DNA from: Candidatus Woesebacteria bacterium
Lineage (GTDB): Bacteria > Patescibacteriota > Microgenomatia > UBA8517
Length of the DNA: 64,000 nucleotides
Direction of reading: 5' to 3'
Assembly: GCA_013374835.1 (NCBI GenBank)
Contig: CP055307.1
Span: forward strand, 10,447 to 74,446
Positions 44,475-60,639 of this stretch are shown here, one piece after another (position 1 is the stretch's first letter; each line of letters opens with the position of its first letter). Under the pieces are notes generated by a model. It did not search any database and was not told the origin of the DNA. It saw nothing but the letters and a program-made list of their open reading frames with translations. The position numbers and the translations under genes are program-made.

Positions 44475-44477
44475 AGG

Positions 44478-46323: not shown

Positions 46324-46359
46324 AAAACTTTATTCAACCAAATTGAAGCGAGTCAAGTA

Positions 46360-49300
46360 TTATAACAATAAAATAAGGAATGTCAAGGGCAGAAGAAGAA
46401 AACCAATCCATTGAAGGATCTGAGGAAGATAAATTATGTAAATAGCAGTTGGTAGTTGGTAGTCAGAGCTAGGAATTTGCCAAGCATTTGCCCATGAGTT
46501 AAGCTTAAAATGTGGTAGTACTTTTATTTTCCAATTATTTATACTAAAAGCAACCCAGCCGGAGTCGTAACCTTGGGAAAGAGCTACAATCCCCTCATCG
46601 CTAACATCTGCTTTATAAAGAGCTGTGCCGAATTTCTTAGTGTCAGTTACTTCAAGGCGGTTATTTATTATTTTTTGATCATTGTTTACTATTTTTATCT
46701 TAGAAAGCCATTCTAAAGGCACCGAGTAGGTAGCTACTAAATCTACTTCATTGATACTTTTTTCACGCCCAAAGGAGCGAGTCTCGAGATTAAGAGTATA
46801 GTTACCTCTGCTTTCAAAAGGCCAGCTTAAAATCGAGAAATAGTTGTCAAAAGAGTTTGGCGAAAGAAGTACCTCAAGATCATTTTTTTGCGTTGCCGGA
46901 TTATAAAGATATGCTTTAAGGCTTCTTCCCTCTTTGTTTTCCCCTCTGATACGCAAGACAAAGCTCTCTTCCGGTGCCGGATAACCCAATATTAAATAGT
47001 CACACAATGCGGCCCTTTCTTCTGCAATATAAATAACTTTATTGTCATTAACTTTTTTTGATACCCCCCCTCTTTGGAAAAGGTCACAATTTCTTTCTCT
47101 TTGCGGGCCTCCATTTATAAAGTCTATGTCAATTTCTTTAGTAGGAATATTTAAAGTAAGGTTATCAATGTTATCAACTAAAATTTTTGTTCCATTTATT
47201 AATTTATCCCAATTAGAATTGGAAAATACAATATCAGCAGATTTATTCATTAAAGAAATATTCACAGGTCGGTAAAAAATAGTTGTTTCAGCTCCAGTTT
47301 CATCAGGAGGACGAGCCGCAAGAACCAACCAATAATTGGCCGTCTCGGGTACAATCATTTCGCGCTCAACTAATCCCCAATCTTTTGATGTGGGGGTTTT
47401 ATAAAAAATTTCTTCATGAATGCATTCGGACTCGCCTTCTTTTACTACACAGAAATGAGGCTTTGCGCCGCTATCCGACCTGTATGGCAACGCGATTTTC
47501 AAAAGCGAATCTTTTTTGAGATTGCCGATTTTCTGAGATGAGCAAGCAACCATGTCTTTTACCTTTATCTCTAGGACACCATCTGACTTTTCAATATTAA
47601 AGTTCCCTTTTGTATTCTCCCTCTGCCAACAATTTACAAATTCCGAATCAAAAAAAGAAAAATTGAATATTTCGCCAGGTATTTCGTAAATTTTTATCTG
47701 TAGAGCTTTGCTAGGGTCAAAAAGAAAAGGAGTTAATTCTTTTTTATCTCCTTGATTAAGATTAGTAACTTTTCCGTTTATAAACAGTGCAATGGATCCT
47801 GGTTTGTCTCTAAGTGTTATATAAAAAGGTTTGAAAAAATTAATCGGGGCTAGATTTTCAAAAAAAACGGGATCTAACAGATTGATTGTAATAAGATTGT
47901 CTTTCAAAGAAACGCTTCCGTGTGCTCTAAACGGATTTTTTAAGGGTGGAATCAATAACTCTTTTTTATTCTGATTAAGGGTTATTTGTGATGATATGGA
48001 CAAAAAAGTTGATCCATCTATATTTGGCTTTACTTTTATATTGTTTAGCTCTTCTCTAAGAAGATTTCCAAAGGGGTAAACAAATTTTTTTGAAGAGACG
48101 TAGTTACCATACTCCATATAAACAGGATCGTATCTTGCATAATCAAGGTCAATATCCGCAAATATGTATGTTTTGGGTGCGTAAACAAAGCTCTCCTCTG
48201 ATGGGACTTTGTAGATTACCAAAAAGCCCTTTTCCCATACCTTTTGGGCGCCAATATCGCTTAAAAGTTTTTCTGTTTCTTTGAATCTTAGAATATTTGG
48301 GTTTCCCTCCGGAACTATTACGCTTTTGTCAATCAAAGCGTAGGTGACATCGTATTTATCAAACAACTTTTTAAAAGCATCTTTGTCTTCGCGGTAGAGC
48401 GCTGTTGAGATTTCATGATAGTAGCCTTCATTGTATTTGCTCCAAACGTCAAAAGCTCTATCCAAAATAGGCTGTTCAATTCCATACCAGAGAAAGCCGC
48501 TTCCCCTGTATCCCCAATCATAGAAATCCCAACCCCAAAATGTTTGGACAGGAAAACGTGCTATCCTTGCCTCCCGGGGCTGAGACCGGAAATAGTCAAA
48601 TAAAGAAAAGTATTCTTCTGGATACTTAACTTGCATTGAATTCGAGATCAGATTTCCTTTAAAGAGCGGTCTTAATTGCAGTACAGCAAGTACGGATATA
48701 AGTAAACAAAAAATAAATGCAGTGACTAAAGTGTATTTTTTCACTAGTTTACTTATGTAAGCGACAAATAATCCTACTCCTAAAGCAAAGCTTAGAGCGT
48801 ATGCGGTAGACCATTTTGTAAACACGGATCGAAACATTTGGCCAAAAAGAGGCACCGCACGAGACATTGTGTTGTAAACTACACCAAGTACGCCTTCCCC
48901 TGCCGTAAGCATAAGAAAAGATAAAATAAACATTGCAAAAAGTGATAGTTCCCACCTGTTTCTTCGTAAAAAAGCACCAAATAAAAAGCCTACTAAGGAT
49001 ACCGCAAACAAACCAATACCGATAATCTCAAATGTTTCAGTACTTACATATTCGCGCCAAAATGGCATAAGGTAATTAAATTCACCGTTTAGTTCATCGC
49101 TATATTCCAGCCAAAAACCCCTCATAAGCATGATGTTTTCGGGATCTCCAAAACCTTGGTTCATAAGTTTTACTTCGGCTGTTGGAAGAACGCTTGTCTT
49201 TGCGCTTATAAGTACTTCGGATCCGCTAAAAGTAAAATATGCTACAGGGATTGACCAAAATGCTGTGGAAAGAGCTGTAATTATTCCAAGTTTTATTACG

Positions 49301-49971
49301 CTACTAAATAATTTTTGTTGTTTTGAAAAAAAATATTCAACAACAAAAAGAGACAAAAGCATAATAAAAACTACAAAATGTGTTTGTATGTAAAATGCTG
49401 TCGCACCCAATAACAGTGCCGTGGAATAATACAATAAGTATCTTTTCTTCGCCTTTTTTAAATATAAAATCGCCAAATAAATAAAAAATGGTAAACATCC
49501 GTAAAAGGTGATAAATGATTCAAAAGGAACAAAAAATGTTTGCACTGTTGACATGTTTAAAAGATATAGCAATCCACCTGCTAGAGCAGCGAAATTGTTA
49601 CGAGTAACATGCCGTGCCAGTAGGTATCCACCAAGCGGTCCAAGTAGAAGCATTCCAAAAGACCAAACATAGCGCAACGCTTCGCGAGGAACAACAAAGG
49701 AGAGCACGGTAAACAACAATTGCCGCGGCAAGTCCGCCGCGTGCGCCATACCACCCAGAAGCCCAACTCCCTGGTATTCCTGCCACACCGCATTAAGTGA
49801 CCTTGTAATGTTAGAGGAAATATTAAACTCCGGGTGCAGATTATCCCAACCAGACAAAACAGTACCTTCGGCAACCGTGCTGGAAATTATTAAAAACCAA
49901 GCAAAAACTATTACTATCGGCGCGATAAATTCCAGTAGTACAGAACAAGCCTTAAGCATTCTTTTCTCCAA
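46360..49971 (-). CDS. very large polytopic membrane protein (N-terminal ~14 TM helices, GT-C-like, plus ~750-aa extracytoplasmic domain)
   Basis: 1203-aa ORF. The hydrophobic N-terminal third resembles GT-C/YfhO-type glycosyltransferases. It sits immediately upstream of the GT4 and GT2 genes. Confidence 0.5.
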   Translation of the reverse strand: MEKRMLKACSVLLEFIAPIVIVFAWFLIISSTVAEGTVLSGWDNLHPEFNISSNITRSLNAVWQEYQGVGLLGGMAHAADLPRQLLFTVLSFVVPREALRYVWSFGMLLLGPLGGYLLARHVTRNNFAALAGGLLYLLNMSTVQTFFVPFESFITFYGCLPFFIYLAILYLKKAKKRYLLYYSTALLLGATAFYIQTHFVVFIMLLSLFVVEYFFSKQQKLFSSVIKLGIITALSTAFWSIPVAYFTFSGSEVLISAKTSVLPTAEVKLMNQGFGDPENIMLMRGFWLEYSDELNGEFNYLMPFWREYVSTETFEIIGIGLFAVSLVGFLFGAFLRRNRWELSLFAMFILSFLMLTAGEGVLGVVYNTMSRAVPLFGQMFRSVFTKWSTAYALSFALGVGLFVAYISKLVKKYTLVTAFIFCLLISVLAVLQLRPLFKGNLISNSMQVKYPEEYFSLFDYFRSQPREARIARFPVQTFWGWDFYDWGYRGSGFLWYGIEQPILDRAFDVWSKYNEGYYHEISTALYREDKDAFKKLFDKYDVTYALIDKSVIVPEGNPNILRFKETEKLLSDIGAQKVWEKGFLVIYKVPSEESFVYAPKTYIFADIDLDYARYDPVYMEYGNYVSSKKFVYPFGNLLREELNNIKVKPNIDGSTFLSISSQITLNQNKKELLIPPLKNPFRAHGSVSLKDNLITINLLDPVFFENLAPINFFKPFYITLRDKPGSIALFINGKVTNLNQGDKKELTPFLFDPSKALQIKIYEIPGEIFNFSFFDSEFVNCWQRENTKGNFNIEKSDGVLEIKVKDMVACSSQKIGNLKKDSLLKIALPYRSDSGAKPHFCVVKEGESECIHEEIFYKTPTSKDWGLVEREMIVPETANYWLVLAARPPDETGAETTIFYRPVNISLMNKSADIVFSNSNWDKLINGTKILVDNIDNLTLNIPTKEIDIDFINGGPQRERNCDLFQRGGVSKKVNDNKVIYIAEERAALCDYLILGYPAPEESFVLRIRGENKEGRSLKAYLYNPATQKNDLEVLLSPNSFDNYFSILSWPFESRGNYTLNLETRSFGREKSINEVDLVATYSVPLEWLSKIKIVNNDQKIINNRLEVTDTKKFGTALYKADVSDEGIVALSQGYDSGWVAFSINNWKIKVLPHFKLNSWANAWQIPSSDYQLPTAIYIIYLPQILQWIGFLLLPLTFLILLL

Positions 49972-51220
49972 TCAACTGTACATACTTTTCCCCCGCGTGT
50001 TTCCAGGAACGTTTATTTCGAATTATCTCCGAGAAGTTTGATAGCTTACGAATTAATCTTTTGTCATTCAGTCTAGTAATAAGATTTTCAAATCCTTCAT
50101 CGGTTAGCGGAAAAGTCATGTTGTCTGCTGTTAGACCACTCGCCTGCAAGCCTTCCTTCATATCTTCTGTCACAAAATAGCCGCGAAGCTCATCTGATAA
50201 AACCACCGGCTTACCGTAGGAAAATGCCCAAGATAGCGGCCCGCTACTACTGACAAATACCCGATATGGCATAACAAGTACATCGCCAGCTGCGAAGTAA
50301 AGCGAAAAATCACTCTCCGGAACAAAACCCGTAATTATAATTTTGTCACTATGTTTGCTGGCTTTGGTATGAATTCCATCAATCATTTTCTGGTATTGAC
50401 TGTCTTCCTTAAACCGCGGGTTCTCTCCCCCAGCAATTAGAAGTCTGATTTTTTGATCGGGATTTTTCTCCAAGTACCTGCTTACTGTATCCACAAGCCA
50501 ATCTGCCCCTTTGTACCAAATAAGAAAACCGAAATACATAAGCACCAGTTCATCTTCTTTAAACCCAAGCTTTTCTCGAGCTTTTTGGCGAGGCATAATA
50601 TCTTTTACCACATCCACTCCATGGGGAATTGTGACAAGCTTATCCTTTTTTCCAGTAAGCGCAATAAGCTCCTGTCGCAGTCCCTCCTCGAATAATACTA
50701 TGTAATTACTTGCAAACACGGTTAACCAGTAGTAACTCTTTAGTGTCAGTGACAGTAGTTTTGTTTTTGTACTCCCCTTCTTTGCCCCCACTTGGCCTGC
50801 TACGCTGTCCGCATCAAGAAGTACTGCATGAGATATGAAAAACACCCGCTTACCCATGAGTCGCATTGCGACAATCATCACAGGCACGAATGTCAAGTGC
50901 CAGCGCTTGTCACTAAACATTGACCACTCAAAAGCAAAAATGATATTTTTTGCCTCTTTGTGAGAAAAGACCGATCTTAATATTTTCCAATAAAGATTTA
51001 GTTTTCCTCGTTTCCAGATTCTTTCTACTTTGATGCCTTCTTCGTAATAAGACTCTTTTTGATCTTTGATTTCGGCTAGGACTATGATTTTGTTTTTTAG
51101 GTGCTTTAAAAGCTCAAGCAGAGTATTTTTGGTATAAGAGGCCGCTCCAGTCATTTTGTGACCGTAGAGGGTCCCTTTGGGGGGGTAAGCTGAAATTACC
51201 AGTAAGGCTTTCTTTCCCAT
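49952..51220 (-). CDS. glycosyltransferase family 4 (GT-B fold)
   Basis: Two-Rossmann layout with the C-terminal 'GGENPRF…ITGFVPESD…AGDVLVMPY' pattern typical of Glycos_transf_1. Confidence 0.6.
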   Translation of the reverse strand: MGKKALLVISAYPPKGTLYGHKMTGAASYTKNTLLELLKHLKNKIIVLAEIKDQKESYYEEGIKVERIWKRGKLNLYWKILRSVFSHKEAKNIIFAFEWSMFSDKRWHLTFVPVMIVAMRLMGKRVFFISHAVLLDADSVAGQVGAKKGSTKTKLLSLTLKSYYWLTVFASNYIVLFEEGLRQELIALTGKKDKLVTIPHGVDVVKDIMPRQKAREKLGFKEDELVLMYFGFLIWYKGADWLVDTVSRYLEKNPDQKIRLLIAGGENPRFKEDSQYQKMIDGIHTKASKHSDKIIITGFVPESDFSLYFAAGDVLVMPYRVFVSSSGPLSWAFSYGKPVVLSDELRGYFVTEDMKEGLQASGLTADNMTFPLTDEGFENLITRLNDKRLIRKLSNFSEIIRNKRSWKHAGEKYVQLIGEKNA

Positions 51221-51240
51221 ATTTCCAGTCTAGCTTTTTT

Positions 51241-52050
51241 TTATGATTTGGCATAGAGATATACTTTCTCTATAAGAAGTGATGGACTGAAGCGTGGCTT
51301 TGGTAAACAGTATATGCCTTTAAGATCATTTATTTTAATAACAAGTAACTCATATAACCCTCTAGCTACATCTCTTAGCACTCCCACCTTGCTTGAATCA
51401 ACATGCTTCCAAACAATCGGCAGCTCGATAATACTGTATCCGAGTTTATTGGCAATATAAAGAACCTCTGGGTCAAAACTCCAGCGCTCTTGGGTGATAC
51501 GCGGGAAAACAGTTTTGGACACACGGCGGGAATAGACCTTAAAGCCACCTGTTACATCGGCAAGCGGCAAACCCAGTAGCTGGCGAACTAAAAAACTATA
51601 GCCCCAGCCAAAGAGTTTTCTTAGGAGACTTCGTTTTACAAGTGAAACCGAGCCGACAAGCCGCTTACTGCCAACGAGTACATCGACACCATTTTCCATA
51701 TGCGGAATGAATGCTTTGAGATTTGAAAATGAGATAGACATATCTGCGTCAATGATAAGGGCGTAGTCGCTCTCCACATGCCTCATCCCACGCTTTAAGG
51801 CATAACCTTTACCGCGGTTTTTGGTATAGCTTATGATTTCTATCTCTGCCCCACTTGGAAGTTTCATCTGTTTTTCTTGCTTATATTTATTAAGCATTGC
51901 AAGGGTATTGTCGTAACTTCCGTCATTTACAAAAATAATCTTCTCCACGCGAACACCGCGCGGGTTTTTAAGTTTATTAACCGCGTTAAATGCAAGATGA
52001 ATTCGCTTCTCTTCGTTGTAAACTGGTATAACTACAGTTAAGGTTTTCAT
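51241..52050 (-). CDS. glycosyltransferase family 2 (Dpm1/GtrB-like polyprenyl-phosphate glycosyltransferase)
   Basis: 'VVIPVYNEEKRI', 'NDGSYDNT' and 'IIDADMS' (DxD) motifs are present. A 10-bp perfect hairpin (GGGTTTGTTT…AAACAAACCC) sequesters the AAGGTGG SD directly in front of the ATG. Confidence 0.7.
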   Translation of the reverse strand: MKTLTVVIPVYNEEKRIHLAFNAVNKLKNPRGVRVEKIIFVNDGSYDNTLAMLNKYKQEKQMKLPSGAEIEIISYTKNRGKGYALKRGMRHVESDYALIIDADMSISFSNLKAFIPHMENGVDVLVGSKRLVGSVSLVKRSLLRKLFGWGYSFLVRQLLGLPLADVTGGFKVYSRRVSKTVFPRITQERWSFDPEVLYIANKLGYSIIELPIVWKHVDSSKVGVLRDVARGLYELLVIKINDLKGIYCLPKPRFSPSLLIEKVYLYAKS

Positions 52051-52212
52051 ATGGGTTTGTTTCTTACCACCTTAATTAAGATGATTAAAAACAAACCCAC
52101 AACCCCAACGAACACTTCTCTAAACACATCCCACACTTTTTTGCATCAGCAAACTGATGCCAAGTATGAGGCGGCCAGAGAAGGTCGTCGAGGTTGTGGT
52201 TAATAGGCAAAC

Positions 52213-53478
52213 TTAACTACACGGACGAAGCGTTGCCGCTTCGACCAACCCGGTGAAACCAGGAGGGATCCCAACTTTAGGGTCCTCCTGACCAGGACGC
52301 GGTTCGCCAGCTTCAGCGCGATAACCGTCTTGCCAACATCCAGAGCTGTTGGTGAGACTCGTCGGCACACTCGCGACTACCCAGCAGTTTGTCTCGCCAG
52401 CGCACTGCGTGAGTGTGACTCCGACTGGGAGGGCGAACAATGTTCGCACCGTCGACTCGGACCAGTCGGCAGGCGCCGGCTGAACGGACTGTGCTGCAGG
52501 TACAGGTTGTGCGGCGGTGGTGGCCGTGGTGATGGGTGTCACTTGGACAACCCATCCTGTTACCCAAGCGCGAGTCCCGTCGGAGTCAGAAACTCGATAC
52601 CACTGCTCTTGGTCGACCAAGACATAGCCGTCCGACGAGACAATCTGACCTGGTACCAGCGTACCCACCTGGTCGAAACTCTCGCCAGGACCTGAACGCA
52701 GATTTACGTTCCCGTTCCCGCTTGGGGTAACAGAAAACAACTGCGGCTCGTCGCATGGGCGTAGTGTCGCCATTTCGGCAGCGACCTGATACGAGTGCGG
52801 CGGGATCGAAATCCGCGGGCCATCGGGATGATTCGAGAAGTCCGGTCGGACTTCACCGGGGTTGACACGGAACCCGTCCACCCAATTTGAGCAGACGTTT
52901 GTGACCAGCCAGCTCTGTCCCTCGATAAACGGGACTTCCCAGCTCTGGAGTCCGTGACGCTGAAGTGGCACAACAGGCCCCTCCAACTGATAAAAAGCTA
53001 CGGCCTCTTCCACCGACCATTGGACTTCGGATTCGCCGCGTTCCTCGAGCGAACTCTGCTGCTCAGGAGCCAGCGGTCGAGCGACCAAGACTTCGACGAA
53101 GCATTCCTGCGTCGTCACGAAATTAGGCGGTATTGAAATCCGGTCAGCTCTTTGCATCGCTGCATAAGATGGCCGCACTTCGCCCGCACACTTACGATAC
53201 CCATCCACCCACAGGGTGAACGGGTTGACCATCTGGATGCTGCCGGCGAACTTCCAGCAATTCGGTTCAACGACGCCCTCGTAAAGGCACTCCACCACGG
53301 CGTACGTGCCGGAAATGCTGTAAAGAGCGACCGCTTCTTCGATCGTCCATGAGGCTGTAGGGGTGGGGGTTGGTGTCTCCCCACCTTGTGCGTTCACTGA
53401 AGGCGTTACCGCCGACAGCGCCAGGGTTGCAACCAAAAAGGCCACAACCAAAGTCCCAAAAACTACGTTTTTGCGCAT
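52213..53478 (-). CDS. secreted protein with a bacterial SH3 (SH3b) domain and three repeats of a novel Cys-containing ~45-aa module; encoded in a ~60% GC island
   Basis: Strong SD (AAAGGAGGT-6nt-ATG) and a signal peptide. SH3b-like 'GNVNLRSGPGESFDQVGTLVPGQIV…WYRV'. The three repeats read 'W.DG(Y/F)R…GE(V/P)RP…I(S)IPP…ATLRPC'. Codon usage is clearly different from the neighbours. Confidence 0.65.
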   Translation of the reverse strand: MRKNVVFGTLVVAFLVATLALSAVTPSVNAQGGETPTPTPTASWTIEEAVALYSISGTYAVVECLYEGVVEPNCWKFAGSIQMVNPFTLWVDGYRKCAGEVRPSYAAMQRADRISIPPNFVTTQECFVEVLVARPLAPEQQSSLEERGESEVQWSVEEAVAFYQLEGPVVPLQRHGLQSWEVPFIEGQSWLVTNVCSNWVDGFRVNPGEVRPDFSNHPDGPRISIPPHSYQVAAEMATLRPCDEPQLFSVTPSGNGNVNLRSGPGESFDQVGTLVPGQIVSSDGYVLVDQEQWYRVSDSDGTRAWVTGWVVQVTPITTATTAAQPVPAAQSVQPAPADWSESTVRTLFALPVGVTLTQCAGETNCWVVASVPTSLTNSSGCWQDGYRAEAGEPRPGQEDPKVGIPPGFTGLVEAATLRPCS

Positions 53479-53738
53479 CGCTACCTCCTTTTGAGGCGCT
53501 GGTGACCCGAATGGGTCGTTTAAAAACCAGCTCCTCTGAACTAGCGCACGGAAGGAAGAACTTTTTGTTCCGCCCTCTGTGCGCTAGTTAAGGAGTAAAG
53601 TTGCCTATTTTTTTAAAGTGCATTTTTAAGTCAAGATTTGCCCTGCTAAACGGGCGGCTTAACTTAAAAAATTGTTATCATTATAGGCAGGGGGTTGGCT
53701 TTGGAAGAGGCAAAGACAACGCTCTACCTACAAACTCA

Positions 53739-54047
53739 TTAACTTTCAAGAAGTTCATCTATAAAGCGACTCTTTTTCTTATTTGAAACAAAACTGAAGG
53801 CAGCCGCCGCCATGACTGCGGCAACACCCGCTACTCTTAAATCTTCTTTAAGGCCTGCTTTGACTGTGATGTGTTCCTCTGGAGTTGTCACACCACAAAC
53901 TACACCCTGACCATAAGATGTGGTGCATGTAGCTTCTGCGGCTTTTATAGTGCCGACAGGAGTTAAAACTGCTAATGCCAGTACCAAAGAAATGATAAAC
54001 TTTTTCATATTACGAGGAATGATATCAGAAGAATATTGTTTTGTCAA
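53739..54047 (-). CDS. small secreted protein with C-terminal hydrophobic segment and a basic tail (sorting-signal-like, but no LPXTG)
   Basis: Signal peptide 'MKKFIISLVLALAVLTPVGTIKA'. The C-terminus reads '…VKAGLKEDLRVAGVAAVMAAAAFSFVSNKKKSRF'. Lies immediately downstream of the second sortase gene. Confidence 0.45.
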   Translation of the reverse strand: MTKQYSSDIIPRNMKKFIISLVLALAVLTPVGTIKAAEATCTTSYGQGVVCGVTTPEEHITVKAGLKEDLRVAGVAAVMAAAAFSFVSNKKKSRFIDELLES

Positions 54048-54102
54048 GACTACAGGATATTATTAAAGTCCAAACCGGTTGATAAAGCAATATTTTAAAA
54101 TT

Positions 54103-54813
54103 TTAGATTTTTAGGAGGCGTGCGTAAACGAAAATTCTTGTGTCGCTTGTGAGATCCTGACAGGTGTAAAGTATTAAATCTGCCGAATAATCGGAAATTT
54201 TATCACCTTTAGCTAATTCATAAACTTCGTAAATATATTTTCTTTGCTGCCAGATGATTTCGACTGTATCCCCCTTTTCAAGCTTTGGAAGATTATAAAA
54301 GGAATGTTTTCTTCTAAAGATATTGCTCCATTTTAAATATCCAAAGCGGTGTGCGGCAAGAATTATAGGTTTAGAGTTATTATCCGGTGTTGCAAAATCC
54401 GGGACTCTCCAGACGCCTTTTTTGAGAGCTTCTTCGTAATTATCGTATGCTGCTTCGTGAATTTGCGTCTCAACTCCTATTTTTTCAATAACCAAGTGCG
54501 CGCCGAGCGAAAGGGATTTATCAAAAGGCGGCTTATAGGGAGTATTATCCTCTTCAGCGCTTGAATTAACTGCTTTTGCTTCCTCGGCCGTATCTAAAAG
54601 ATAGTTTGAGATTATTTTACCTCCTTGGGAACGGAGGCTATACCAAGCCGAAGGCGCGTATGAGGCTATAAAAAGAAAAATACCCAAACCAACTAAAAAA
54701 GCTGCCAGCCTTGTAAAGATATTTGGAGGGATGTCCGAGCTTTTCCTTTTCGGGACTTTGTGTGGCTTTCGAAAGTCTTTATTTAAATATTTCTCAATAT
54801 GCTTTGATTCCAT
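54103..54813 (-). CDS. sortase family transpeptidase (second copy)
   Basis: N-terminal TM anchor, His 'ILAAHRFGY', catalytic 'LILYTCQD' (TLxTC) and a downstream Arg 'VYARL'. Confidence 0.65.
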   Translation of the reverse strand: MESKHIEKYLNKDFRKPHKVPKRKSSDIPPNIFTRLAAFLVGLGIFLFIASYAPSAWYSLRSQGGKIISNYLLDTAEEAKAVNSSAEEDNTPYKPPFDKSLSLGAHLVIEKIGVETQIHEAAYDNYEEALKKGVWRVPDFATPDNNSKPIILAAHRFGYLKWSNIFRRKHSFYNLPKLEKGDTVEIIWQQRKYIYEVYELAKGDKISDYSADLILYTCQDLTSDTRIFVYARLLKI

Positions 54814-54827
54814 TAGTTTATTTTAGA

Positions 54828-54896
54828 CCAAAAAAAATCAACCTCAAAGAGAGTGGGTAGTACGCCTGCCCTACATACCACCCACCCTATTTGAGG
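54828..54896 (-). terminator. rho-independent-terminator-like hairpin plus U-tract on the minus strand
   Basis: Minus strand: ACCTCAAATAGGGTGGGT-[18 nt]-ACCCACTCTCTTTGAGGT, followed by 'TGATTTTTTTTGG'. The element ends only ~15 nt upstream of the sortase start codon. Confidence 0.35.
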
Positions 54897-55265
54897 TTGA
54901 TCCGCTTAAACACCACTTGACTTTTTGGTGCAAATCGAGTTAGTCTTATAATGATTTATCCAGTAAAAAGAGCCTGCTCTAGCTGGATAAATTATTAAAA
55001 GAGCGTTACCTAAAGGATTGTGTACTTTGCTTTTTGTGACTTGTTTCTCTTGTGTAGAGATATGTCAACGATAAGCGAAGTTTACAAACAAACAGGTACG
55101 CTCTTTTTTGTGTGACTTAAGGTGCTAATTACTATTAAAGCAAATATATCACTTCTTGATCGAGGATGTCAAATCCTATAATTAATATTACATAATTTTT
55201 ACATATTCCTATAGTAAAAAACATAATAAAAATTGCCTTATTTTCGGTTTAAAATTAAAAACAGC

Positions 55266-56594
55266 TTATTTTGTGGATAACATGAGGATAGCTTTTTTAA
55301 GATTATTTGCGGTTTTGGCCGACACGATATTATTAAAACCTTGTTTTCTCATTTCTTTGATCCTTTTTTCTTCAGAGGTAACTTTTCTTATTTCCCCCAT
55401 GAGACCTAATTCTCCAATAGCAACCGTATTTGCTTTTATGGGTTTTTCTTTATATGCGCTTATAATTGACAAGGCAATGGCCAGATCTGCCGCCGGATCC
55501 CGAACACTAATACCCCCTACCGCATTTGCATAGATATCGAAGTTATATAAAGGAATATTCAAACGACTAATAAGCACTGCCACAATAAGCTCTAAACGGC
55601 GTGAGTCTATTCCTTGTGCAATTCTTTTAGGATAGGGCGTATTTGTTCGATTTACAAGAGCTTGAATTTCTACGAGAAGCGGCCTTGTGCCCTCGAGAAT
55701 GCTTGTGAGCACCGATCCCGGCTCGGATGAAGTTTTACTGCTTACGAATAAATCATTGAGGCTACTAACTGACATTAAACCCTTTTCCTCCATTCTGAAA
55801 AGTCCAATTTCATCAGTTGGACCAAAGCGGTTTTTAATCGAGCGGAGAATGCGAAGAAGCAGGTCTTTGTCACCCTCGAACCAGAGCACTGTATCAACAA
55901 TGTGCATTAGTGTAGCAGGCCCTGCAACCGAACCTTCTTTTGTAACGTGCCCAACCATGATTAAAGGAATACTATTTGACTTGGCAAGGCGAACGAGTCT
56001 TTGGGCTGATTCTCTTACCTGTCCTACCGATCCTGCAATGCCGGATAAATCTCTTGTTGATACCGTTTGGATAGAATCGATTATTATCAATTGAGGAAGA
56101 CTTTTCGTAGAAAGGTTTTCCAGATAGCTTATTATTGAGTCAACATCGGACTCTTCGAGAAGATTTATGCGGTTCGAGTAAATACCAAGCCTTGTAGCCC
56201 TTAGCTTAAGCTGGTGAACCGATTCTTCAGCAGATATATAAAGAATGTATGCGTTTCTACTTGTTTTGGCTAATTTTTCGGATATTTGGAGTAAAATTGT
56301 GGACTTACCAATCCCCGGTTCTCCGGCAAGGAGCACTACCTGCCCTTTTACAAAACCACCACCAAGGACATTGTCCAGCTCGGGGATATTTGTTTTTATC
56401 CTTTGGAGGTCTTTCTGAGGAACAGACGACAAAGAAACAGGTTCTAAAATTTTTGTAGTTTTCTTTTTGGATTTTGTCTCTTTTGGAATAAGCGTTTCAA
56501 CAAGAGATCCCCAAGCACCACACTGAGGACACCTTCCTCCCCAACCTGTTTGTGTATAGCCGCATTGCTGGCAGACATAACTTGACTTTGCCAT
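55266..56594 (-). CDS. radA: DNA repair protein RadA/Sms
   Basis: N-terminal C4 zinc finger 'CQQCGYTQTGWGGRCPQCGAWG', Walker A 'GEPGIGKST', the KNRFG motif ('SIKNRFGPT') and a Lon-like C-terminal domain. Confidence 0.85.
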   Translation of the reverse strand: MAKSSYVCQQCGYTQTGWGGRCPQCGAWGSLVETLIPKETKSKKKTTKILEPVSLSSVPQKDLQRIKTNIPELDNVLGGGFVKGQVVLLAGEPGIGKSTILLQISEKLAKTSRNAYILYISAEESVHQLKLRATRLGIYSNRINLLEESDVDSIISYLENLSTKSLPQLIIIDSIQTVSTRDLSGIAGSVGQVRESAQRLVRLAKSNSIPLIMVGHVTKEGSVAGPATLMHIVDTVLWFEGDKDLLLRILRSIKNRFGPTDEIGLFRMEEKGLMSVSSLNDLFVSSKTSSEPGSVLTSILEGTRPLLVEIQALVNRTNTPYPKRIAQGIDSRRLELIVAVLISRLNIPLYNFDIYANAVGGISVRDPAADLAIALSIISAYKEKPIKANTVAIGELGLMGEIRKVTSEEKRIKEMRKQGFNNIVSAKTANNLKKAILMLSTK

Positions 56595-56658
56595 AAATCA
56601 ATCTAAATATTATCAGATATCCCAAATATTGAAAATTTTCAGCCTTTTTGAAATTTAT

Positions 56659-57756
56659 CTATTTGTAACCTATCGGTTTTGTTGTGAGGACTAAACCGAG
56701 AGAGATTTTTCGCTCAGAGGCGTTTATTTCCTCTATGTAAACTTCTATTTCGTCACCCTTTTTAATATCTTTATCGGGCGGAATTTTGGTCATGTGCACC
56801 AACCCCTCAATTCCCGGCTCCAGTTCCACAAAAACTCCAAAGCCGCTTTTTCGTACAACTTTGCCTTTAAGTTTTTGTTCCTTTTGGTATTTTTCTTCCA
56901 CACTTAGCCAAGGATCTTTTTGGGCATCTTTAATCGAAAGGGAGAGCTTGCCATCTTTTGTGCCGAGTACTTTTACCTCAACTTTATCCCCCACCGAAAC
57001 TATTTTTGAAGGATCGCTTATTTTTTCCCAAGATAGCTCGGAGATATGAACCAAGCCCTCGATAGGAACAGGTTTTTTACCGATCTCCACTCTTAACTCT
57101 ACAAAGGCGCCGAATGAGGTGAGCTCTTTTACTCTTCCTTTGAGTATTTCACCTTCTTTGAGGTTTTTGAGAGCTTTTTCTTCAAGCTCTAATTCTTCTC
57201 TTTCGGAAACAGCTCTTTCTGAAAGAACAATCCTATTTTTATCCCTATCTACTTCTATTATCTTTGCCGGAAATTCTTGGTCGAGAAGCTTATCTACTTC
57301 TTTTGCCGCTTCTTTACCAAGCTGGGATGCCGGAATAAAACCGATTAATGATTTTTCAACTTCGACAACTACACCTTTTTCAGTAACGTTTTTACCTACG
57401 ACTTTTATTTCGGCTCCTTTATTTTTAGCTTTTTCCAGCTTGTTCCAAAGAGAATCGAATGCTTGATCTTTGATTGAAAGAAGTACATTCCCGTCGCGGC
57501 TTTCGGGTTCGACCACTACTGCGTTTACCACGTCCCCAACTTTGAGCTTTTTGACAAAACTTTTAACCTCATCGTAATGCGAACCTATAACAAGCGCGTC
57601 TGATTTGGCCCCTATATCCAAAGTTATTACACCTTGTTCGAGAGAAAGTATTTTTGCTTTTACTTCTTGGCCTGCTTCGAAGCTTTGAACAACAATGGGT
57701 GAGCGAGCAAGCAGCTCTTCCATTGTAATTTTTTTGTTATTTTGTTTTTTTGCCAA
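56659..57756 (-). CDS. rpsA: 30S ribosomal protein S1 (four S1 domains)
   Basis: Repeated S1 OB-fold pattern ('G.V…..GAFV.L…..GL.H.S..'). Lies directly upstream of 5S on the same strand. Confidence 0.7.
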   Translation of the reverse strand: MAKKQNNKKITMEELLARSPIVVQSFEAGQEVKAKILSLEQGVITLDIGAKSDALVIGSHYDEVKSFVKKLKVGDVVNAVVVEPESRDGNVLLSIKDQAFDSLWNKLEKAKNKGAEIKVVGKNVTEKGVVVEVEKSLIGFIPASQLGKEAAKEVDKLLDQEFPAKIIEVDRDKNRIVLSERAVSEREELELEEKALKNLKEGEILKGRVKELTSFGAFVELRVEIGKKPVPIEGLVHISELSWEKISDPSKIVSVGDKVEVKVLGTKDGKLSLSIKDAQKDPWLSVEEKYQKEQKLKGKVVRKSGFGVFVELEPGIEGLVHMTKIPPDKDIKKGDEIEVYIEEINASERKISLGLVLTTKPIGYK

Positions 57757-57830
57757 AAATCATGACCGCCTTTCTATTTTTTTATTATCGCAAATAATTT
57801 AAGCCAGGAAAAATGGATTTTAATCCGGGC

Positions 57831-57962
57831 CTAGATGGACCAGCAATGACCTATTTTCGCACAAAGTTGCCTAAGCACTATCGTAGGCGCTGCCCAGTTT
57901 TACTTCTGAGTTCGGAATGGGGTCAGGTAGTTCCAAGGCGCTTTAATCACTGGTCCATCCAG
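57831..57962 (-). rRNA. rrf: 5S ribosomal RNA
   Basis: The minus strand contains 'ACCTGACCCCATTCCGAACTCAGAAGTAAAAC', matching the universal 5S loop B/helix III region. Terminal helix I pairs 'GGATGGACCAG' with 'CTGGTCCATC'. Ends are ±5 nt. Confidence 0.8.
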
Positions 57963-58170
57963 ACCCAGACTGTGTTAACCACAATCAGGGTAGCTGGTTT
58001 AAATTTTAAAAAGGTGCGAATTCAGATTGTTATCTGAAATCTAAAGAGAAAGGTACAAAGAAAAGTCTAATGACCGATTCGTGCAAAGTAAGCTTAATTC
58101 CTTACGGAACTTCCACTTCCTGCCGATCAACCTGATGTTCTTTCAGGAGTCTAAGAGCCCTCATCTTGGG

Positions 58171-58209
<39 letters not shown>

Positions 58210-58394
58210 AGGAATGTAGCTACCCGGCGCTGCCGCTGACGCGACAACCGGCACACTAGGGATTCCCCCTTCCTGGTCCTCTCGTACTGAGGAAAGCTCC
58301 CCTCAAGGCTCCAACGCACACACCGGATAGAGTCCGAGCTGTCTCGCGACGCTCTGAACCCAGCTCACGTACCACTTTAATGGGCGAACAGACC

Positions 58395-58427
<33 letters not shown>

Positions 58428-59013
58428 GTGAGCCGACATCGAGGTAGCGAACCGCGCCGTCGATATGGACTCTCGGGCGCGACTACTCTGTTATCCCCGG
58501 GGTAACTTTTATCCGTTAAGCCCCATCCATTCCCACAATGAGATGGGGGATCACTAAGACCTGCTTTCGCACTAGCTCCACCCGTCGGTGTCGCTATCAA
58601 GCTGGCTTATAGCTTTACCCTTAATCCGCCATTTCCATCGGCGGAAAGCCAACCTTTGTACCCCTGCGTTACCTTTTGGCAGGGTACCGCCCCAGTAAAA
58701 CTGCCCATCTGACACTTTTCCTGAACCCGTCTTCAGGGCCCTTAGGTAAGCCTTTTAATCTTCGAAGGGTGGTATCACACTGGCTCCCGATTAAATCGGG
58801 ATCCCACCTATTCTTGACAATCGAGGACTAAAGGAGGCAATGCCAGACTACAGTAAAGCTCCACGGGGTCTATTTGTCCTGGTGTGTGTAGGCCGCGTCT
58901 TCACAGCCACCGCAATTTCGCCGGGTGGATTTTCAAGACAGTTGTTAGCTCGTTACGCCTTTCGTGCGGGTCTAAACTTACTAGACAAGGAACTTCGCTA
59001 CCGTAGAACAGTT

Positions 59014-60588: not shown

Positions 60589-60639
<51 letters not shown>

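What the first reader, a model, noticed from the sequence alone, without database searches (positions are those of the whole stretch)
52190..53600. 1.4-kb island of ~60% GC encoding a secreted SH3b / triple-repeat protein, a likely horizontal acquisition from a high-GC donor
Against a ~35-40% GC background, positions ~52190-53600 jump to ~60% GC with a completely different codon bias (CGC/GCC/GAC-rich). The region is exactly one gene (52213-53478, minus strand) with an unusually strong SD (AAAGGAGGT). It encodes a signal peptide, an SH3b-type domain and three copies of a ~45-aa module 'W.DG(Y/F)R…GE(V/P)RP…ISIPP…ATLRPC' that I cannot place in a known family. Composition returns to host-like values abruptly on both sides. 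This is a single-gene foreign insertion, possibly a cell-wall-binding effector, or else an assembly chimera.
Basis: seen in the sequence. Interest (0 to 1): 0.7.

Follow-up and report, generated by a model that had tools for sequence, protein, structure and literature searches.

The report
Persistently GC-rich surface-protein cassette in Microgenomates
The 60 % GC gene is real, but it is neither a recent foreign insertion nor an assembly error: it is a swappable gene for a secreted cell-wall-binding protein that holds the same chromosomal slot, and the same odd GC-rich composition, across many low-GC Microgenomates (CPR) bacteria, which ordinary mutation pressure should have erased long ago.

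Summary
Window 52213-53478 (-) is one 421-aa ORF at 58.5 % GC (GC3 0.61) in a 38 % GC background, and its tetranucleotide signature is anticorrelated with the rest of the window.

Two independent assemblies match the window exactly across both GC transitions, so it is not a chimera.

Homologues sit in the same slot (sortase, small protein, THIS GENE, GT2, GT1, ~1200-aa membrane protein) in every related contig examined. All are Microgenomates, and all homologues are 52-60 % GC against 31-48 % GC flanks. Synonymous sites between orthologues are saturated, yet GC4 stays near 0.6. The composition is therefore maintained, not left over from a donor. No donor clade was found among 1.84 billion representative proteins.

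Against the closest relative, homology collapses exactly over the mature-protein part (52233-53346). This indicates cassette replacement by recombination.

The protein has a signal peptide, a PT linker, and three copies of a new ~85-93-aa module (pLDDT 96.5, no PDB match) around one SH3b domain.

The gene is monocistronic. It has a conserved leader that sequesters the Shine-Dalgarno sequence and is absent from Rfam, and a long terminator hairpin. Why the GC stays high is unresolved.

The parts
53607..53634 (-). Promoter-like site (TTGACT, 16 nt, AAAAAT) upstream of the leader
   Evidence: Consensus scan, 9 of 12 matches. The surrounding sequence is conserved in L007 and L024. This is a consensus match only; it has not been shown to be functional.
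53476..53599 (-). Structured 5' leader: a three-way junction whose closing helix pairs ACUCCUU (53590-53596) with the Shine-Dalgarno AAGGAGG (53484-53490). It carries two internal hairpins.
   Evidence: MFE is -66.8 kcal/mol and z = -7.3 against 200 dinucleotide shuffles. The same architecture is found in L004, L007 and L024. In L006 the sequence differs but the pairs are kept through compensatory changes (covariance model R1, 35.5 bits). L025 has an analogous junction that sequesters the SD with unrelated sequence. There is no Rfam match.
52213..53478 (-). CDS of the 421-aa secreted protein, the GC-rich gene
   Evidence: ORF. Exact protein P0001 is present in NCBI and Logan assemblies. GC 0.585, GC3 0.614.
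53389..53478 (-). Sec-type signal peptide (aa 1-30, MRK + hydrophobic core + VNA|QG), followed by the ETPTPTPT linker (aa 34-41)
   Evidence: Read from the sequence. The AlphaFold model has a helix at aa 3-23 and then a disordered stretch at aa 24-42. No signal-peptide predictor was run. This part belongs to the conserved 5' flank block (93 % nt identity to L007).
53074..53352 (-). Module A (aa 43-135) of the new ~85-93-aa repeat
   Evidence: HMM built from the module alignment, 108 bits. Alignments.
52753..53022 (-). Module B (aa 153-242)
   Evidence: HMM 114 bits. It was the best-scoring stretch in the search of 1.84 billion representatives.
52549..52713 (-). SH3b domain (Pfam stretch aa 256-310; the fold spans aa ~248-315)
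   Evidence: PF08239 at 1.9e-9, 38 bits against a cut-off of 27. Foldseek hits to lysostaphin SH3b 5leo, ALE-1 1r77 and 2krs with probability 1.0.
52219..52467 (-). Module C (aa 338-420). This is the copy that was modelled.
52233..53346 (-). Replaceable cassette: the stretch with no detectable nucleotide homology to the closest relative (L007), although both flanks are 90-93 % identical
   Evidence: blastn blocks are window 53347-58000 (93.0 %) and 45000-52232 (89.8 %), with nothing in between. L007 carries a 571-aa allele that is 42 % identical.
52087..52199 (-). Long imperfect hairpin (52097-52199) followed by UUUGUUUUU (52087-52096): an intrinsic-terminator-like 3' end that makes the gene monocistronic
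   Evidence: MFE is -60.4 kcal/mol, z = -6.6. The sliding-window z is -8.35 for 52101-52250. The simple terminator scan missed it because the stem is too long for that scan.
54103..54813 (-). Upstream neighbour: sortase (conserved synteny)
   Evidence: PF04203 at 8.9e-12. It holds the same position in L001-L012, L019 and L022.
53739..54047 (-). Upstream neighbour: small secreted protein (called as 89 aa from MKKF) with a C-terminal hydrophobic segment and a KKKSR tail. Low GC (0.405).
   Evidence: ORF. An 84-104-aa gene is conserved at this position in all close relatives.
51241..52050 (-). Downstream neighbour: family-2 glycosyltransferase
   Evidence: PF00535 at 3.2e-27. It lies downstream of the family gene in all ten contexts, immediately so in most.
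49952..51220 (-). Downstream neighbour: family-1 (GT4-type) glycosyltransferase
   Evidence: PF13692 and PF00534. Synteny as for the GT2 gene.
46360..49971 (-). Downstream neighbour: 1203-aa polytopic membrane protein, probably a divergent GT-C-type glycosyltransferase
   Evidence: It has no Pfam hit itself. It has 910 homologues in Patescibacteria, and some of those carry PF11847 (AftD), PF10131, PF09586 (YfhO) or PF14264 (GtrII).

Best explanation
What it is (shown). The island is a self-contained transcription unit: promoter-like site, structured leader, one CDS and a long terminator hairpin. The CDS encodes a secreted protein with this order of parts: signal peptide, Pro/Thr linker, module A, module B, SH3b, linker, module C. 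The module belongs to a small family seen so far only in the Microgenomates group of the CPR/Patescibacteria. The gene always lies just upstream of a conserved GT2 + GT1 + ~1200-aa membrane-protein cluster, and usually downstream of a sortase and a small secreted protein.

How it evolves (shown). The mature-protein part behaves as an exchangeable cassette. The promoter, leader, signal peptide and last codons/terminator belong to the conserved flanks, and the middle is swapped for a deeply divergent allele by homologous recombination. In the window, L004 and L006 lineages the same allele type has diverged about as much as, or less than, the neighbouring genes. It has therefore lived in low-GC genomes for a very long time while staying 58-60 % GC. 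The high GC is a maintained equilibrium, not a fading donor signature.

How it most likely works (inferred).
- The protein is exported by Sec and is held non-covalently on the cell envelope through SH3b. Relatives use LysM or extra SH3b domains.
- It presents disulfide-braced modules at the surface as a binding or recognition protein. Diversifying selection on such a protein drives allele turnover.
- It is functionally tied to the adjacent extracytoplasmic glycosylation genes, either as a glycoprotein substrate (PT-rich linkers) or as a binder of their product.
- Translation is gated by the leader, which locks the SD in a helix.

Why the GC stays high (inferred). My preferred explanation is gene-specific selection. 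A Lys/Ile/Asn-poor, Pro/Val/Ala/Trp/Cys-rich protein accounts for about half of the excess. Selection at synonymous sites for a heavily base-paired nucleic acid accounts for the other half.
For: Transcription unit.

Domain architecture.

Family size and taxonomy:
- There are only 34 hits among 1.84 billion representatives.
- Named members are Ca. Microgenomatus, Ca. Gottesmanbacteria and Ca. Roizmanbacteria.

Synteny in ten lineage contexts.

GC of the family gene against its flanks:
- 0.585 vs 0.39, 0.583 vs 0.42-0.43, 0.595 vs 0.40, 0.585 vs 0.41.
- 0.567 vs 0.31-0.40, 0.555 vs 0.40-0.51, 0.52 vs 0.37-0.43.
- 0.547 vs 0.31-0.45, 0.597 vs 0.38-0.45.

Saturated four-fold sites with GC4 0.57-0.66.

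Cassette breakpoints at 53346/53347 and 52232/52233, plus a second breakpoint at ~52220 against L004.

Discordant identities:
- L007: flanks 87-97 %, target 42 %.
- L006: flanks 32-59 %, target 62 %.

Among L007-like strains the allele has 0 mismatches in 1716 nt, while neighbouring genes differ by up to 2-3 %.

Split of the GC excess into amino-acid and synonymous parts.

Excess folding of the CDS:
- z = -7.1, -4.7, -5.0 and -5.4 against synonymous-codon shuffles in four orthologues.
- Seven flanking-gene controls give +0.9 to -2.4.
- z = -8.2 for the window gene and -2.7 to -7.7 in distant family members with dinucleotide shuffles.

Leader conservation with compensatory pairs.

GT-C hints for the big neighbour.
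Against: - The cause of the GC maintenance is not demonstrated. The excess self-complementarity is equally strong on the antisense strand (z -3.6 to -7.3), so it is not specifically an mRNA property. Inside the CDS it is diffuse: 150-nt windows mostly give z between 0 and -4.
- Non-homologous genes in the same slot of other lineages are also GC-rich (L027 x429 at 0.56 and x284 at 0.59; L025 x375 at 0.53). This fits a slot-level or gene-pool explanation better than a constraint peculiar to this protein family.
- About 20 of the 34 family representatives sit on contigs too short to show their genomic background, so an unsampled high-GC reservoir is not excluded.
- Surface location, wall binding, disulfides, glycosylation and translational gating are all inferred from sequence, models and gene order. 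None is measured.
- The leader covariation rests on four distinct sequences.
Confidence: 0.6

Rival explanations
1. Ancient or recurrent horizontal import. The cassette pool lives mainly in an unsampled high-GC reservoir (high-GC Microgenomates, their hosts, or a mobile element). It is repeatedly recombined into the slot, so each resident copy is replaced before it ameliorates.
For: - The whole gene looks like a high-GC genome at every level: CGN Arg codons, no TTA, Lys 1.0 % against Arg 4.5 %, and a tetranucleotide signature anticorrelated with the host.
- Cassette replacement and mosaic flanks show that recombination does deliver alleles.
- Unrelated GC-rich genes share the slot in L025 and L027.
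- GC-rich genes of different lineages share a tetranucleotide signature, r = 0.3-0.78.
Against: - No member with a high-GC background was found in ten of ten contexts.
- All three named members are low-GC Microgenomates.
- Searches of 5.8 billion and 1.84 billion proteins gave no other clade.
- Type-I alleles in the window, L004 and L006 lineages diverge roughly in step with, or more slowly than, their flanks. This looks like long vertical residence in low-GC genomes.
- The recombination anchors (leader, signal peptide, terminator) are Microgenomates sequences, so the donors must be relatives.
- No integrase, repeats or phage genes were found.
Confidence: 0.22
2. GC-biased gene conversion at a recombination hot spot. 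Frequent recombination at this locus, combined with GC-biased mismatch repair, drives the GC upward.
For: - There is clear evidence of repeated recombination with breakpoints at the gene ends.
- The adjacent GT2 and GT1 genes have the next-highest GC3 in the window (0.40, 0.41). Their GC3 is 0.46-0.51 in L004 and L007.
Against: - Heteroduplex, and so biased repair, forms in the homologous flanks and not in a heterologous cassette. The cassette is nevertheless the GC-rich part.
- The low-GC 'small' gene lies between GC-rich genes in L027, and the sortase and small genes next to the cassette are 0.37-0.44 GC. The effect is therefore gene-by-gene and not regional.
- A +0.28 shift in GC3 is far larger than the effects attributed to gBGC in bacteria. 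This last point rests on my own knowledge of that literature and was not checked here.
Confidence: 0.08
3. Pure protein-level constraint. The amino-acid composition of an extracellular, Cys/Pro/Trp/Val-rich, Lys-poor protein explains the island by itself.
For: GC1 is 0.63 and GC2 is 0.51. The same protein written in host codons would already be 48.5 % GC against a 38 % background.
Against: - Expected GC3 with host codons is 0.34; observed is 0.61.
- Four-fold sites at identical residues are 57-66 % GC in all orthologues.
- Another secreted, PT-rich, Cys-rich protein in the window (45724-46323) lies in a region of ordinary GC, ~0.39-0.40.
Confidence: 0.04
4. Assembly chimera or contaminating high-GC fragment.
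For: The GC boundaries are sharp and coincide with the gene.
Against: - Independent Logan assemblies from two other runs are 100 % identical across both junctions.
- The same arrangement appears in JGI, ENA, NCBI and Logan contigs of relatives.
- The 5' homology block with L007 runs 132 nt into the GC-rich ORF.
Confidence: 0.01
5. Target of a diversity-generating retroelement or other local hypermutation that skews composition.
For: DGRs are common in CPR (my own knowledge). The gene is hypervariable between close relatives.
Against: - No template/variable repeat pair involving the gene exists anywhere in the 64-kb window.
- There is no adenine depletion or AT skew on the coding strand.
- The variation spans the entire mature protein with clean breakpoints and includes a change of architecture (extra SH3 domain). 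It is not confined to a short C-terminal variable region.
Confidence: 0.02

Closest known systems
SH3b cell-wall-targeting domains (lysostaphin and ALE-1 C-terminal domains, phage endolysin binding domains; Pfam PF08239 SH3_3)
   Same: Residues ~248-315 pass the Pfam threshold and superpose on lysostaphin SH3b (5leo), ALE-1 (1r77) and clostridial SH3b domains. As in those proteins, the SH3b is one domain of a secreted multi-domain protein.
   Different: No recognisable catalytic domain accompanies it (no M23, amidase, NlpC/P60 or GH25 hit). The partners are three copies of an undescribed module. What the SH3b binds is unknown.
Compositionally atypical genomic islands ('alien genes') acquired by horizontal transfer
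   Same: A discrete block with deviant GC, codon usage and oligonucleotide signature, and sharp edges.
   Different: It is higher in GC than the host, not lower. It is a single gene without integrase, tRNA or repeats. It is present in the same slot across a phylum-level clade. Synonymous sites are saturated but not ameliorated. No donor was found.
Hypervariable surface-protein or antigen loci replaced by homologous recombination in conserved flanks (for example pneumococcal pspA/pspC/cps and neisserial tbpB/porB; comparison from my own knowledge)
   Same: Conserved flanks with a deeply divergent centre, sharp breakpoints, a gene tree discordant with the flank tree, mosaic strain-level identity, and a secreted product.
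   Different: It is found in uncultivated CPR bacteria with ~0.9-Mb genomes. The exchange unit is precisely the mature-protein part of one gene, and the signal peptide and regulatory RNA remain with the flank. All alleles share an anomalous composition.
Two-step extracytoplasmic glycosylation systems (GT2 polyprenyl-phosphate-sugar synthase plus GT-C transferase: GtrB/GtrC, CsbB/YfhO, Ppm1/Pmt; comparison from my own knowledge)
   Same: The invariable downstream neighbours are a GT2 and a ~1200-aa polytopic membrane protein whose homologues sporadically hit GT-C Pfam families (AftD, YfhO, GtrII, PF10131). The protein has Pro/Thr-rich linkers of the kind that Pmt-type systems glycosylate.
   Different: The window's big protein has no Pfam hit of its own. 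No flippase was identified. No link between these enzymes and the GC-rich protein has been tested.
SD-sequestering cis-regulatory leaders (expression platforms of translational riboswitches, RNA thermometers)
   Same: The Shine-Dalgarno sequence is paired with a conserved upstream anti-SD, and the fold is kept by compensatory changes.
   Different: It matches no Rfam family. It is a three-way junction of about -67 kcal/mol, which is far too stable for a simple thermometer. No ligand or protein partner is known. It is seen only in front of this gene family.

Membership tests
Bacterial SH3 domain (Pfam PF08239, SH3_3) | Profile score above Pfam's gathering threshold | tested here: met
   38 bits against a cut-off of 27, E = 1.9e-9, aa 256-310.
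Bacterial SH3 domain (Pfam PF08239, SH3_3) | SH3b beta-barrel fold | tested here: met
   The model segment 248-315 is all-beta. Foldseek gives probability 1.0 to 5leo, 1r77, 2krs, 7aqh and 2kt8, with target-normalised TM of 0.52-0.73.
Bacterial SH3 domain (Pfam PF08239, SH3_3) | Binds peptidoglycan or another wall polymer | not testable with these tools
   Needs a binding assay.
Recently acquired genomic island (horizontal transfer) | Composition deviates from the host | tested here: met
   GC z = 6.0-6.4, GC3 z = 8.2, tetranucleotide r = -0.38.
Recently acquired genomic island (horizontal transfer) | Absent from the same site in related genomes | tested here: not met
   A family gene occupies the slot in all ten lineage contexts.
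Recently acquired genomic island (horizontal transfer) | Mobility hallmarks: integrase or transposase, tRNA junction, flanking direct repeats | tested here: not met
   No repeats or inverted repeats involve 52000-53700. The nearest tRNAs are at 27.5 kb and 62 kb. The neighbours are sortase and glycosyltransferases.
Recently acquired genomic island (horizontal transfer) | Homologues in a donor clade of matching composition | tested here: not met
   Nine and 34 hits in the two protein searches. All hits with context or a name are low-GC Microgenomates. Short contigs leave roughly 20 representatives unplaced.
Recently acquired genomic island (horizontal transfer) | Too little time has passed for synonymous sites to turn over | tested here: not met
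   Four-fold sites at identical residues are 31-37 % identical between orthologues, and GC4 is still 0.57-0.66.
Assembly chimera | Junctions not reproduced by independent data | tested here: not met
   L001 and L002, from other runs, are 100 % identical across both junctions. Raw reads could not be examined.
Hypervariable locus with allelic replacement by recombination | Conserved flanks, non-homologous centre, sharp breakpoints | tested here: met
   Flank blocks of 93.0 % and 89.8 % identity, with no blastn match for 52233-53346 against L007.
Hypervariable locus with allelic replacement by recombination | Gene history discordant with flank history | tested here: met
   Target is 42 % identical where flanks are 87-97 %, and 62 % where flanks are 32-59 %. 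The allele is identical among strains whose flanks differ by up to 2-3 %.
Sortase substrate (LPXTG-type sorting signal) | C-terminal LPXTG-like motif, hydrophobic segment and basic tail | tested here: not met
   The protein ends ...EAATLRPCS. In contrast, ORF 45724-46323 has LPETG, a TM segment and a basic tail.
Peptidoglycan hydrolase of the catalytic-domain + SH3b type | Recognisable catalytic domain | tested here: not met
Diversity-generating retroelement target | Template/variable repeat pair near the gene | tested here: not met
   No repeat in the 64-kb window involves the gene.
Diversity-generating retroelement target | Reverse transcriptase in the genome | not tested
   Only 64 kb of the ~0.9-Mb genome is available, and the ORFs of the window were not all scanned.
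SD-sequestering cis-regulatory RNA | SD base-paired in a structure more stable than chance | tested here: met
   P1 pairs ACUCCUU with AAGGAGG. MFE is -66.8 kcal/mol, z = -7.3.
SD-sequestering cis-regulatory RNA | Structure conserved through compensatory changes | tested here: inconclusive
   The L006 leader aligns full-length to model R1 with most stem pairs changed on both sides. Only four distinct sequences are available, and MAFFT/RNAalifold misaligned L006.
SD-sequestering cis-regulatory RNA | Membership of a described RNA family | tested here: not met
   There is no Rfam hit at gathering score, and no credible hit at E up to 10.
GT2 + GT-C extracytoplasmic glycosylation system (gene context) | GT2 synthase gene present | tested here: met
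   PF00535 at 3.2e-27 for 51241-52050.
GT2 + GT-C extracytoplasmic glycosylation system (gene context) | GT-C fold transferase present | tested here: inconclusive
   The 1203-aa neighbour has no Pfam hit. Some of its 910 homologues carry PF11847, PF10131, PF09586 or PF14264.

The most novel reading that the evidence does not exclude
The GC-richness is actively selected and belongs to a regulatory design. The transcript is made but kept translationally silent by the conserved SD-locking three-way-junction leader. Its coding region is selected at synonymous sites to be GC-rich and densely base-paired, so that the untranslated mRNA resists Rho-dependent termination and RNase attack until a cue opens the leader. 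That would make it a stored mRNA for on-demand production of a variable surface or host-recognition protein in an ultra-small episymbiont. More generally, Microgenomates would harbour a class of 'composition-locked' genes whose base composition is held far from the genomic mutational equilibrium.
Probability: 0.15. Interest if true: 0.85.

Novelty: new variant of a known kind. Interest (0 to 1): 0.6.

Why it matters
Compositional outliers are routinely read as recent horizontal transfers and are used to date them through amelioration. Here one gene stays 20 points of GC above its genome, in the same chromosomal slot, across lineages whose neighbouring proteins have diverged to 32-59 % identity. 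Its synonymous sites are fully randomised. This is a clean counter-example showing that a strong local force can hold composition away from the genomic equilibrium. It offers a tractable case, many natural replicates of one slot, for asking what that force is.

The locus also yields three leads into how uncultivated CPR bacteria build and vary their cell surface:
- a new, confidently modelled extracellular domain with no structural relative;
- a recombination-swapped surface-protein cassette;
- a candidate cis-regulatory RNA that is not in Rfam.

Tried and rejected
- The search for related loci with the six-protein alignment failed because it had no conserved stretch. With four proteins it returned only the already known Ca. 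Microgenomatus contig.
- The single metagenome-contig scan, using a C-terminal module pattern, returned one locus: another copy of the L007-type allele.
- The search for homologous proteins with the 44-sequence module profile returned nothing, so taxonomy had to come from cluster look-ups.
- PDB sequence search with the module profile gave only chance hits at E = 1.3.
- PHROGs found no match for the protein.
- Repeat and tandem-repeat searches found no att-like repeats, no template/variable pair and no DNA-level repeat of the three modules. DGR and mobile-element readings were dropped.
- Rfam in E-value mode gave only chance miRNA-type hits.
- MAFFT plus RNAalifold misaligned the L006 leader. 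Model R1 with default filters missed it too, and it was recovered only with filters off.
- I considered the CDS fold excess as evidence for an mRNA-specific structure. The antisense strand gives the same excess, so I do not claim strand specificity.
- I considered translational optimisation. The highly expressed-type S1 gene next door has GC3 0.34, so GC-ending codons are not the preferred set in this genome.
- A published complete Microgenomates genome (Ch65, PMC7143001) turned out to be a different organism: 801,504 bp and 44.8 % GC.
- The Gracilibacteria hypervariable-gene paper (PMC6851277) describes a different phenomenon, a PTD nucleotide-repeat locus.


Full report
OBSERVATION

The window is about 38 % GC. 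One ORF, 52213-53478 on the minus strand (421 aa), is 58.5 % GC, with GC1 0.63, GC2 0.51 and GC3 0.61.

Against the 35 other long ORFs of the window (GC 0.383 ± 0.034; GC3 0.323 ± 0.035, maximum 0.409), the gene lies 6.0 sd out for GC and 8.2 sd out for GC3.

Its strand-symmetric tetranucleotide profile correlates at -0.38 with the rest of the window. The 272 background windows of the same length average 0.84 and never fall below 0.40.

The transitions occur within about 100-150 nt at both gene ends.

The other GC-rich stretches near the right end of the window are a 23S rRNA gene with insertions, a 5S rRNA and a tRNA. This is therefore the only GC-rich protein gene in the window.

Pfam finds only an SH3b domain (PF08239, aa 256-310, 38 bits against a cut-off of 27).

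The module is present three times, at aa 43-135, 153-242 and 338-420.

If the protein were written in the host's codons it would be 48.5 % GC with GC3 0.34. Roughly half of the excess is therefore amino-acid composition (Lys 1.0 % against 7.3 %, Ile 2.6 % against 7.8 %, with more Pro, Val, Ala, Gln, Trp and Cys). The other half is synonymous choice: CGN instead of AGR, no TTA, and many NCG and GTC codons.

NOT A CHIMERA

The exact protein occurs on a 901,682-bp NCBI contig and in two Logan assemblies from different sequencing runs. Those two contigs are 100 % identical to the window over 10,448 bp (44437-54884) and 5,938 bp (51244-57181). Both span the two GC transitions.

NOT A RECENT INSERTION

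The protein search returned few homologues: nine hits, of which four are full-length relatives at 42-62 % identity. Each of these sits in the same gene order as in the window: S1 protein, RadA, sortase, a small ~89-aa secreted protein, the GC-rich gene, GT2, GT1, and a ~1200-aa membrane protein. One of these contigs is named Candidatus Microgenomatus sp..

A profile of the module, searched against 1.84 billion representative proteins, found only 34 proteins. Most are two-module proteins with an N-terminal anchor, and some carry SH3b or LysM domains.

Every more distant member for which a long contig exists again lies upstream of GT2-GT1-big membrane protein. The contexts are L017 (a Candidatus Gottesmanbacteria record), L019, L022, L025 and L027, plus L024 from the metagenome scan. 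A further named member is from Candidatus Roizmanbacteria. All named taxa belong to the Microgenomates group. I looked up the lineage for Candidatus Microgenomatus. For the other two, membership rests on established knowledge.

In every context the family gene is GC-rich against its own flanks:
- 0.58-0.60 against 0.39-0.43 in the close relatives.
- L017: 0.567 against 0.31-0.40.
- L019: 0.555 against 0.40-0.51.
- L022: 0.52 against 0.37-0.43, and a second family gene next to it is 0.548.
- L025: 0.547 against 0.31-0.45.
- L027: 0.597 against 0.38-0.45.

The flanks of the different lineages share one tetranucleotide signature (r = 0.86-0.96). The family genes share another (r = 0.3-0.78) that is anticorrelated with every flank.

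THE COMPOSITION IS AN EQUILIBRIUM

Between the four full-length orthologues, four-fold degenerate sites at identical amino acids are only 31-37 % identical. They are essentially randomised. Yet each copy keeps 57-66 % G+C at exactly those sites.

The window, L004 and L006 share the same architecture (type I: A-B-SH3b-C) at 60-62 % identity. Their flanking proteins are 50-57 % identical (L004 upstream side) or 32-59 % identical (L006). This allele type has thus diverged about as much as, or less than, its neighbours. That is what long vertical residence in low-GC genomes predicts.

Under the genomic mutation bias its synonymous sites should long since have fallen to about 0.33 GC. They have not. 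A donor signature that has not yet faded cannot explain this.

THE MATURE PART IS A RECOMBINATION CASSETTE

The closest relative (L007 and its strain variants) has flanking proteins 87-97 % identical to the window, but a 571-aa allele that is only 42 % identical and carries an extra SH3-like domain.

At the nucleotide level, identity is 93.0 % from 58000 down to 53347. That block includes the promoter region, the leader and the first 44 codons (signal peptide and PT linker). Identity then vanishes, and it resumes at 52232, six codons before the stop, at 89.8 % down to 45000.

Against L004 the downstream block (46480-52220) is 88 % identical, while everything upstream is 63-70 %. This places another breakpoint at the 3' end of the gene.

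Among L007-like strains the allele shows no substitution in 1716 nt. Divergence in the adjacent genes is patchy, from 99.9 % identity down to 97.0 %, with 17-26 mismatches in the sortase, GT2 and GT1 genes.

The locus is therefore a recombination mosaic. The exchanged unit is the mature-protein coding part.

No repeats, inverted repeats, template/variable pairs, transposases or phage genes accompany it.

THE PROTEIN

Read from the sequence, the N-terminus is a Sec signal peptide: MRK, a hydrophobic core and VNA|QG. It is followed by ETPTPTPT. The C-terminus (…ATLRPCS) lacks a sortase signal.

The full-length model (pLDDT 79.9) shows beads on a string. It matches solved structures only through the SH3b domain: lysostaphin, ALE-1 and endolysin binding domains.

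Conserved positions of the module include W2, a C…C pair around E-x-N-C-W, N40, C-W-x-D-G-Y/W-R, G-E-x-R-P, G-I-P-P and T-L-R-P-C. The paired cysteines suggest two disulfides per module. This is an inference.

Relatives combine the module with SH3b or LysM, both of which are wall-binding domains. This supports an envelope-associated role.

No catalytic domain is recognisable.

GENE NEIGHBOURHOOD

The invariant partners are a GT2 (PF00535), a GT1/GT4 (PF13692, PF00534) and a 1203-aa polytopic membrane protein. The last has no Pfam hit itself. It has 910 homologues in Patescibacteria, and some of them carry GT-C family hits: AftD PF11847, PF10131, YfhO PF09586 and GtrII PF14264.

GT2 plus GT-C is the layout of extracytoplasmic glycosylation systems (my own knowledge). 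Coupling to the GC-rich protein, either as a glycosylated substrate via its Pro/Thr linkers or as a binder of the product, is an inference from conserved adjacency only.

The wider locus also holds two sortases and a clear LPETG substrate. It is a cell-surface locus.

TRANSCRIPTION UNIT AND LEADER

A promoter-like site lies at 53634-53607.

The next ~124 nt (53599-53476) fold into a three-way junction of -66.8 kcal/mol (z = -7.3).

The same architecture is present in L004, L007 and L024. In L006 it has a different sequence but preserved pairing. A covariance model built on three sequences aligns the L006 leader end to end at 35.5 bits, with most stem pairs compensated. L025 has an analogous SD-closing junction with unrelated sequence.

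Rfam has no match.

Twelve nucleotides after the stop codon, a 103-nt imperfect hairpin (52199-52097, -60.4 kcal/mol, z = -6.6) is followed by UUUGUUUUU.

The gene thus looks monocistronic and translationally gated. This is inferred, not measured.

WHY DOES IT STAY GC-RICH?

Several explanations were tested.

(a) Protein constraint alone fails, because of the four-fold sites.

(b) Translational optimisation fails. The neighbouring S1 gene has GC3 0.34.

(c) Regional GC-biased gene conversion is unlikely.
- Heteroduplex forms in the homologous flanks, not in a heterologous cassette.
- The effect is gene-by-gene. In L027 the low-GC small gene (0.42) lies between GC-rich genes, and the sortase and small genes next to the cassette are 0.37-0.44.
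- GT2 and GT1 are only mildly elevated.

(d) Recurrent import from an unseen high-GC pool remains possible. It is favoured by one fact: unrelated genes in the same slot are also GC-rich (L027 x429 at 0.56 and x284 at 0.59; L025 x375 at 0.53). However, no such pool was found. The recombination anchors are Microgenomates sequences. The type-I alleles look vertically inherited.

(e) Selection at the nucleotide level has some support.
- The whole CDS folds far more stably than synonymous-codon shuffles that keep the protein and the codon counts: z = -7.1 in the window and -4.7, -5.0 and -5.4 in three orthologues.
- Seven control segments from flanking genes give +0.9 to -2.4.
- Dinucleotide shuffles give -8.2 for the window gene, -2.7 to -7.7 for distant family members, and +0.8 to -1.5 for controls.

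The excess is diffuse inside the CDS, and it is just as strong on the antisense strand. It is a property of the duplex sequence and cannot be assigned to the mRNA on this evidence.

I therefore rank gene-specific selection (protein composition plus nucleotide-level selection for a GC-rich, self-complementary sequence) first. I hold it with modest confidence and regard the cause as unresolved.

COMPARISON WITH WHAT IS KNOWN

The SH3b domain is an ordinary member of PF08239.

As a locus, this behaves like the recombination-replaced surface-protein loci known from pathogens. It differs in three ways: it is in a CPR lineage, the signal peptide and leader are kept with the flank, and the composition is anomalous and uniform across alleles.

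It fails four of the five tests for a recently acquired island, and it fails the test for a chimera.

The module and the leader have no described counterparts in the libraries I could search. AFDB was not available.

Full-text searches for the phenomenon found nothing that describes it.

VERDICT

The finding is more interesting than a routine island because the composition is conserved across deep divergence. The force behind that conservation is not identified.

Noticed in passing
window 53476-53599 (-); also L004 9881-10003, L007 4617-4738, L024 4313-4434, L006 5523-5646: Candidate new cis-regulatory RNA. It is a ~124-nt three-way-junction leader whose closing helix sequesters the Shine-Dalgarno sequence of the GC-rich gene. 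It is conserved, with compensatory changes in L006, and has no Rfam match.
   Followed up: partly
window 52087-52199 (-): An unusually long (103-nt) imperfect hairpin plus a U-run directly after the gene (z = -6.6). It is terminator-like. It coincides with the recurrent 3' recombination breakpoint at ~52220-52232.
   Followed up: partly
window 52213-53478 and orthologues in L004, L006, L007, L017, L019, L022, L025, L027: The coding sequences fold much more stably than synonymous-codon or dinucleotide shuffles (z -2.7 to -8.2). The antisense strands do so as well. Flanking genes do not. The cause is unexplained.
   Followed up: partly
L027 1500-2789 and 4359-5213; L025 8368-9495; L022 8664-9338: Further GC-rich genes (0.53-0.59) lie in the same slot of other Microgenomates. 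They are a PKD-like secreted protein, a charged 284-aa protein, a secreted protein with three Cys-rich repeats joined by TPTP linkers, and a second family member (SH3 plus one module). A low-GC conserved small gene sits between some of them.
   Followed up: partly
window 46480-52220 against L004 11284-17009: The GT2-GT1-big-protein block is 88 % identical between the window and a Ca. Microgenomatus genome whose upstream genes (S1, RadA, sortase) are only 63-70 % identical. The glycosyltransferase cluster itself has been exchanged between distant lineages.
   Followed up: partly
window 58058-62053 (-), ORF 59143-59658 (-): The 23S rRNA gene spans 3,996 nt against a 2,925-position model. It therefore carries about 1 kb of insertions, including a LAGLIDADG homing-endonuclease ORF (PF00961, 1.9e-19). 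Relatives L004 and L019 also have LAGLIDADG ORFs at the corresponding place.
   Followed up: partly
window 63062-63474 (+): A GIY-YIG nuclease ORF (63132-63401, PF01541, 7.9e-17) sits immediately upstream of tRNA-Ile (63400-63474). It is preceded by a 46-nt duplicate that includes the tRNA's 5' part (63062-63107 against 63378-63423, 80 %). This looks like an endonuclease insertion next to a tRNA gene.
   Followed up: partly
window 45081-46323 (-): A second sortase (45081-45812) lies next to a 199-aa secreted Cys-rich protein with a Pro/Thr/Ser linker, an LPETG motif, a TM segment and a basic tail (45724-46323). This is a textbook sortase substrate, and its GC is ordinary.
   Followed up: partly
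window 53739-54047 (-): The small conserved protein between the sortase and the GC-rich gene has a signal peptide and a C-terminal hydrophobic segment plus KKKSR tail, but no canonical LPXTG. It may be a non-canonical sortase substrate.
   Followed up: no
window 3198-13562 (-): Five or six tandemly arranged large ORFs (360-706 aa) share 88-190-nt repeats at 60-85 % identity near one end. This is a paralogous family of large proteins.
   Followed up: no
window 35963-41659 and 42315-44466: There are two sets of duplicated segments: ~3.1-kb spacing at 81-95 % identity, and ~1.86-kb spacing at 86-97 % identity. They indicate recent local gene duplications.
   Followed up: no
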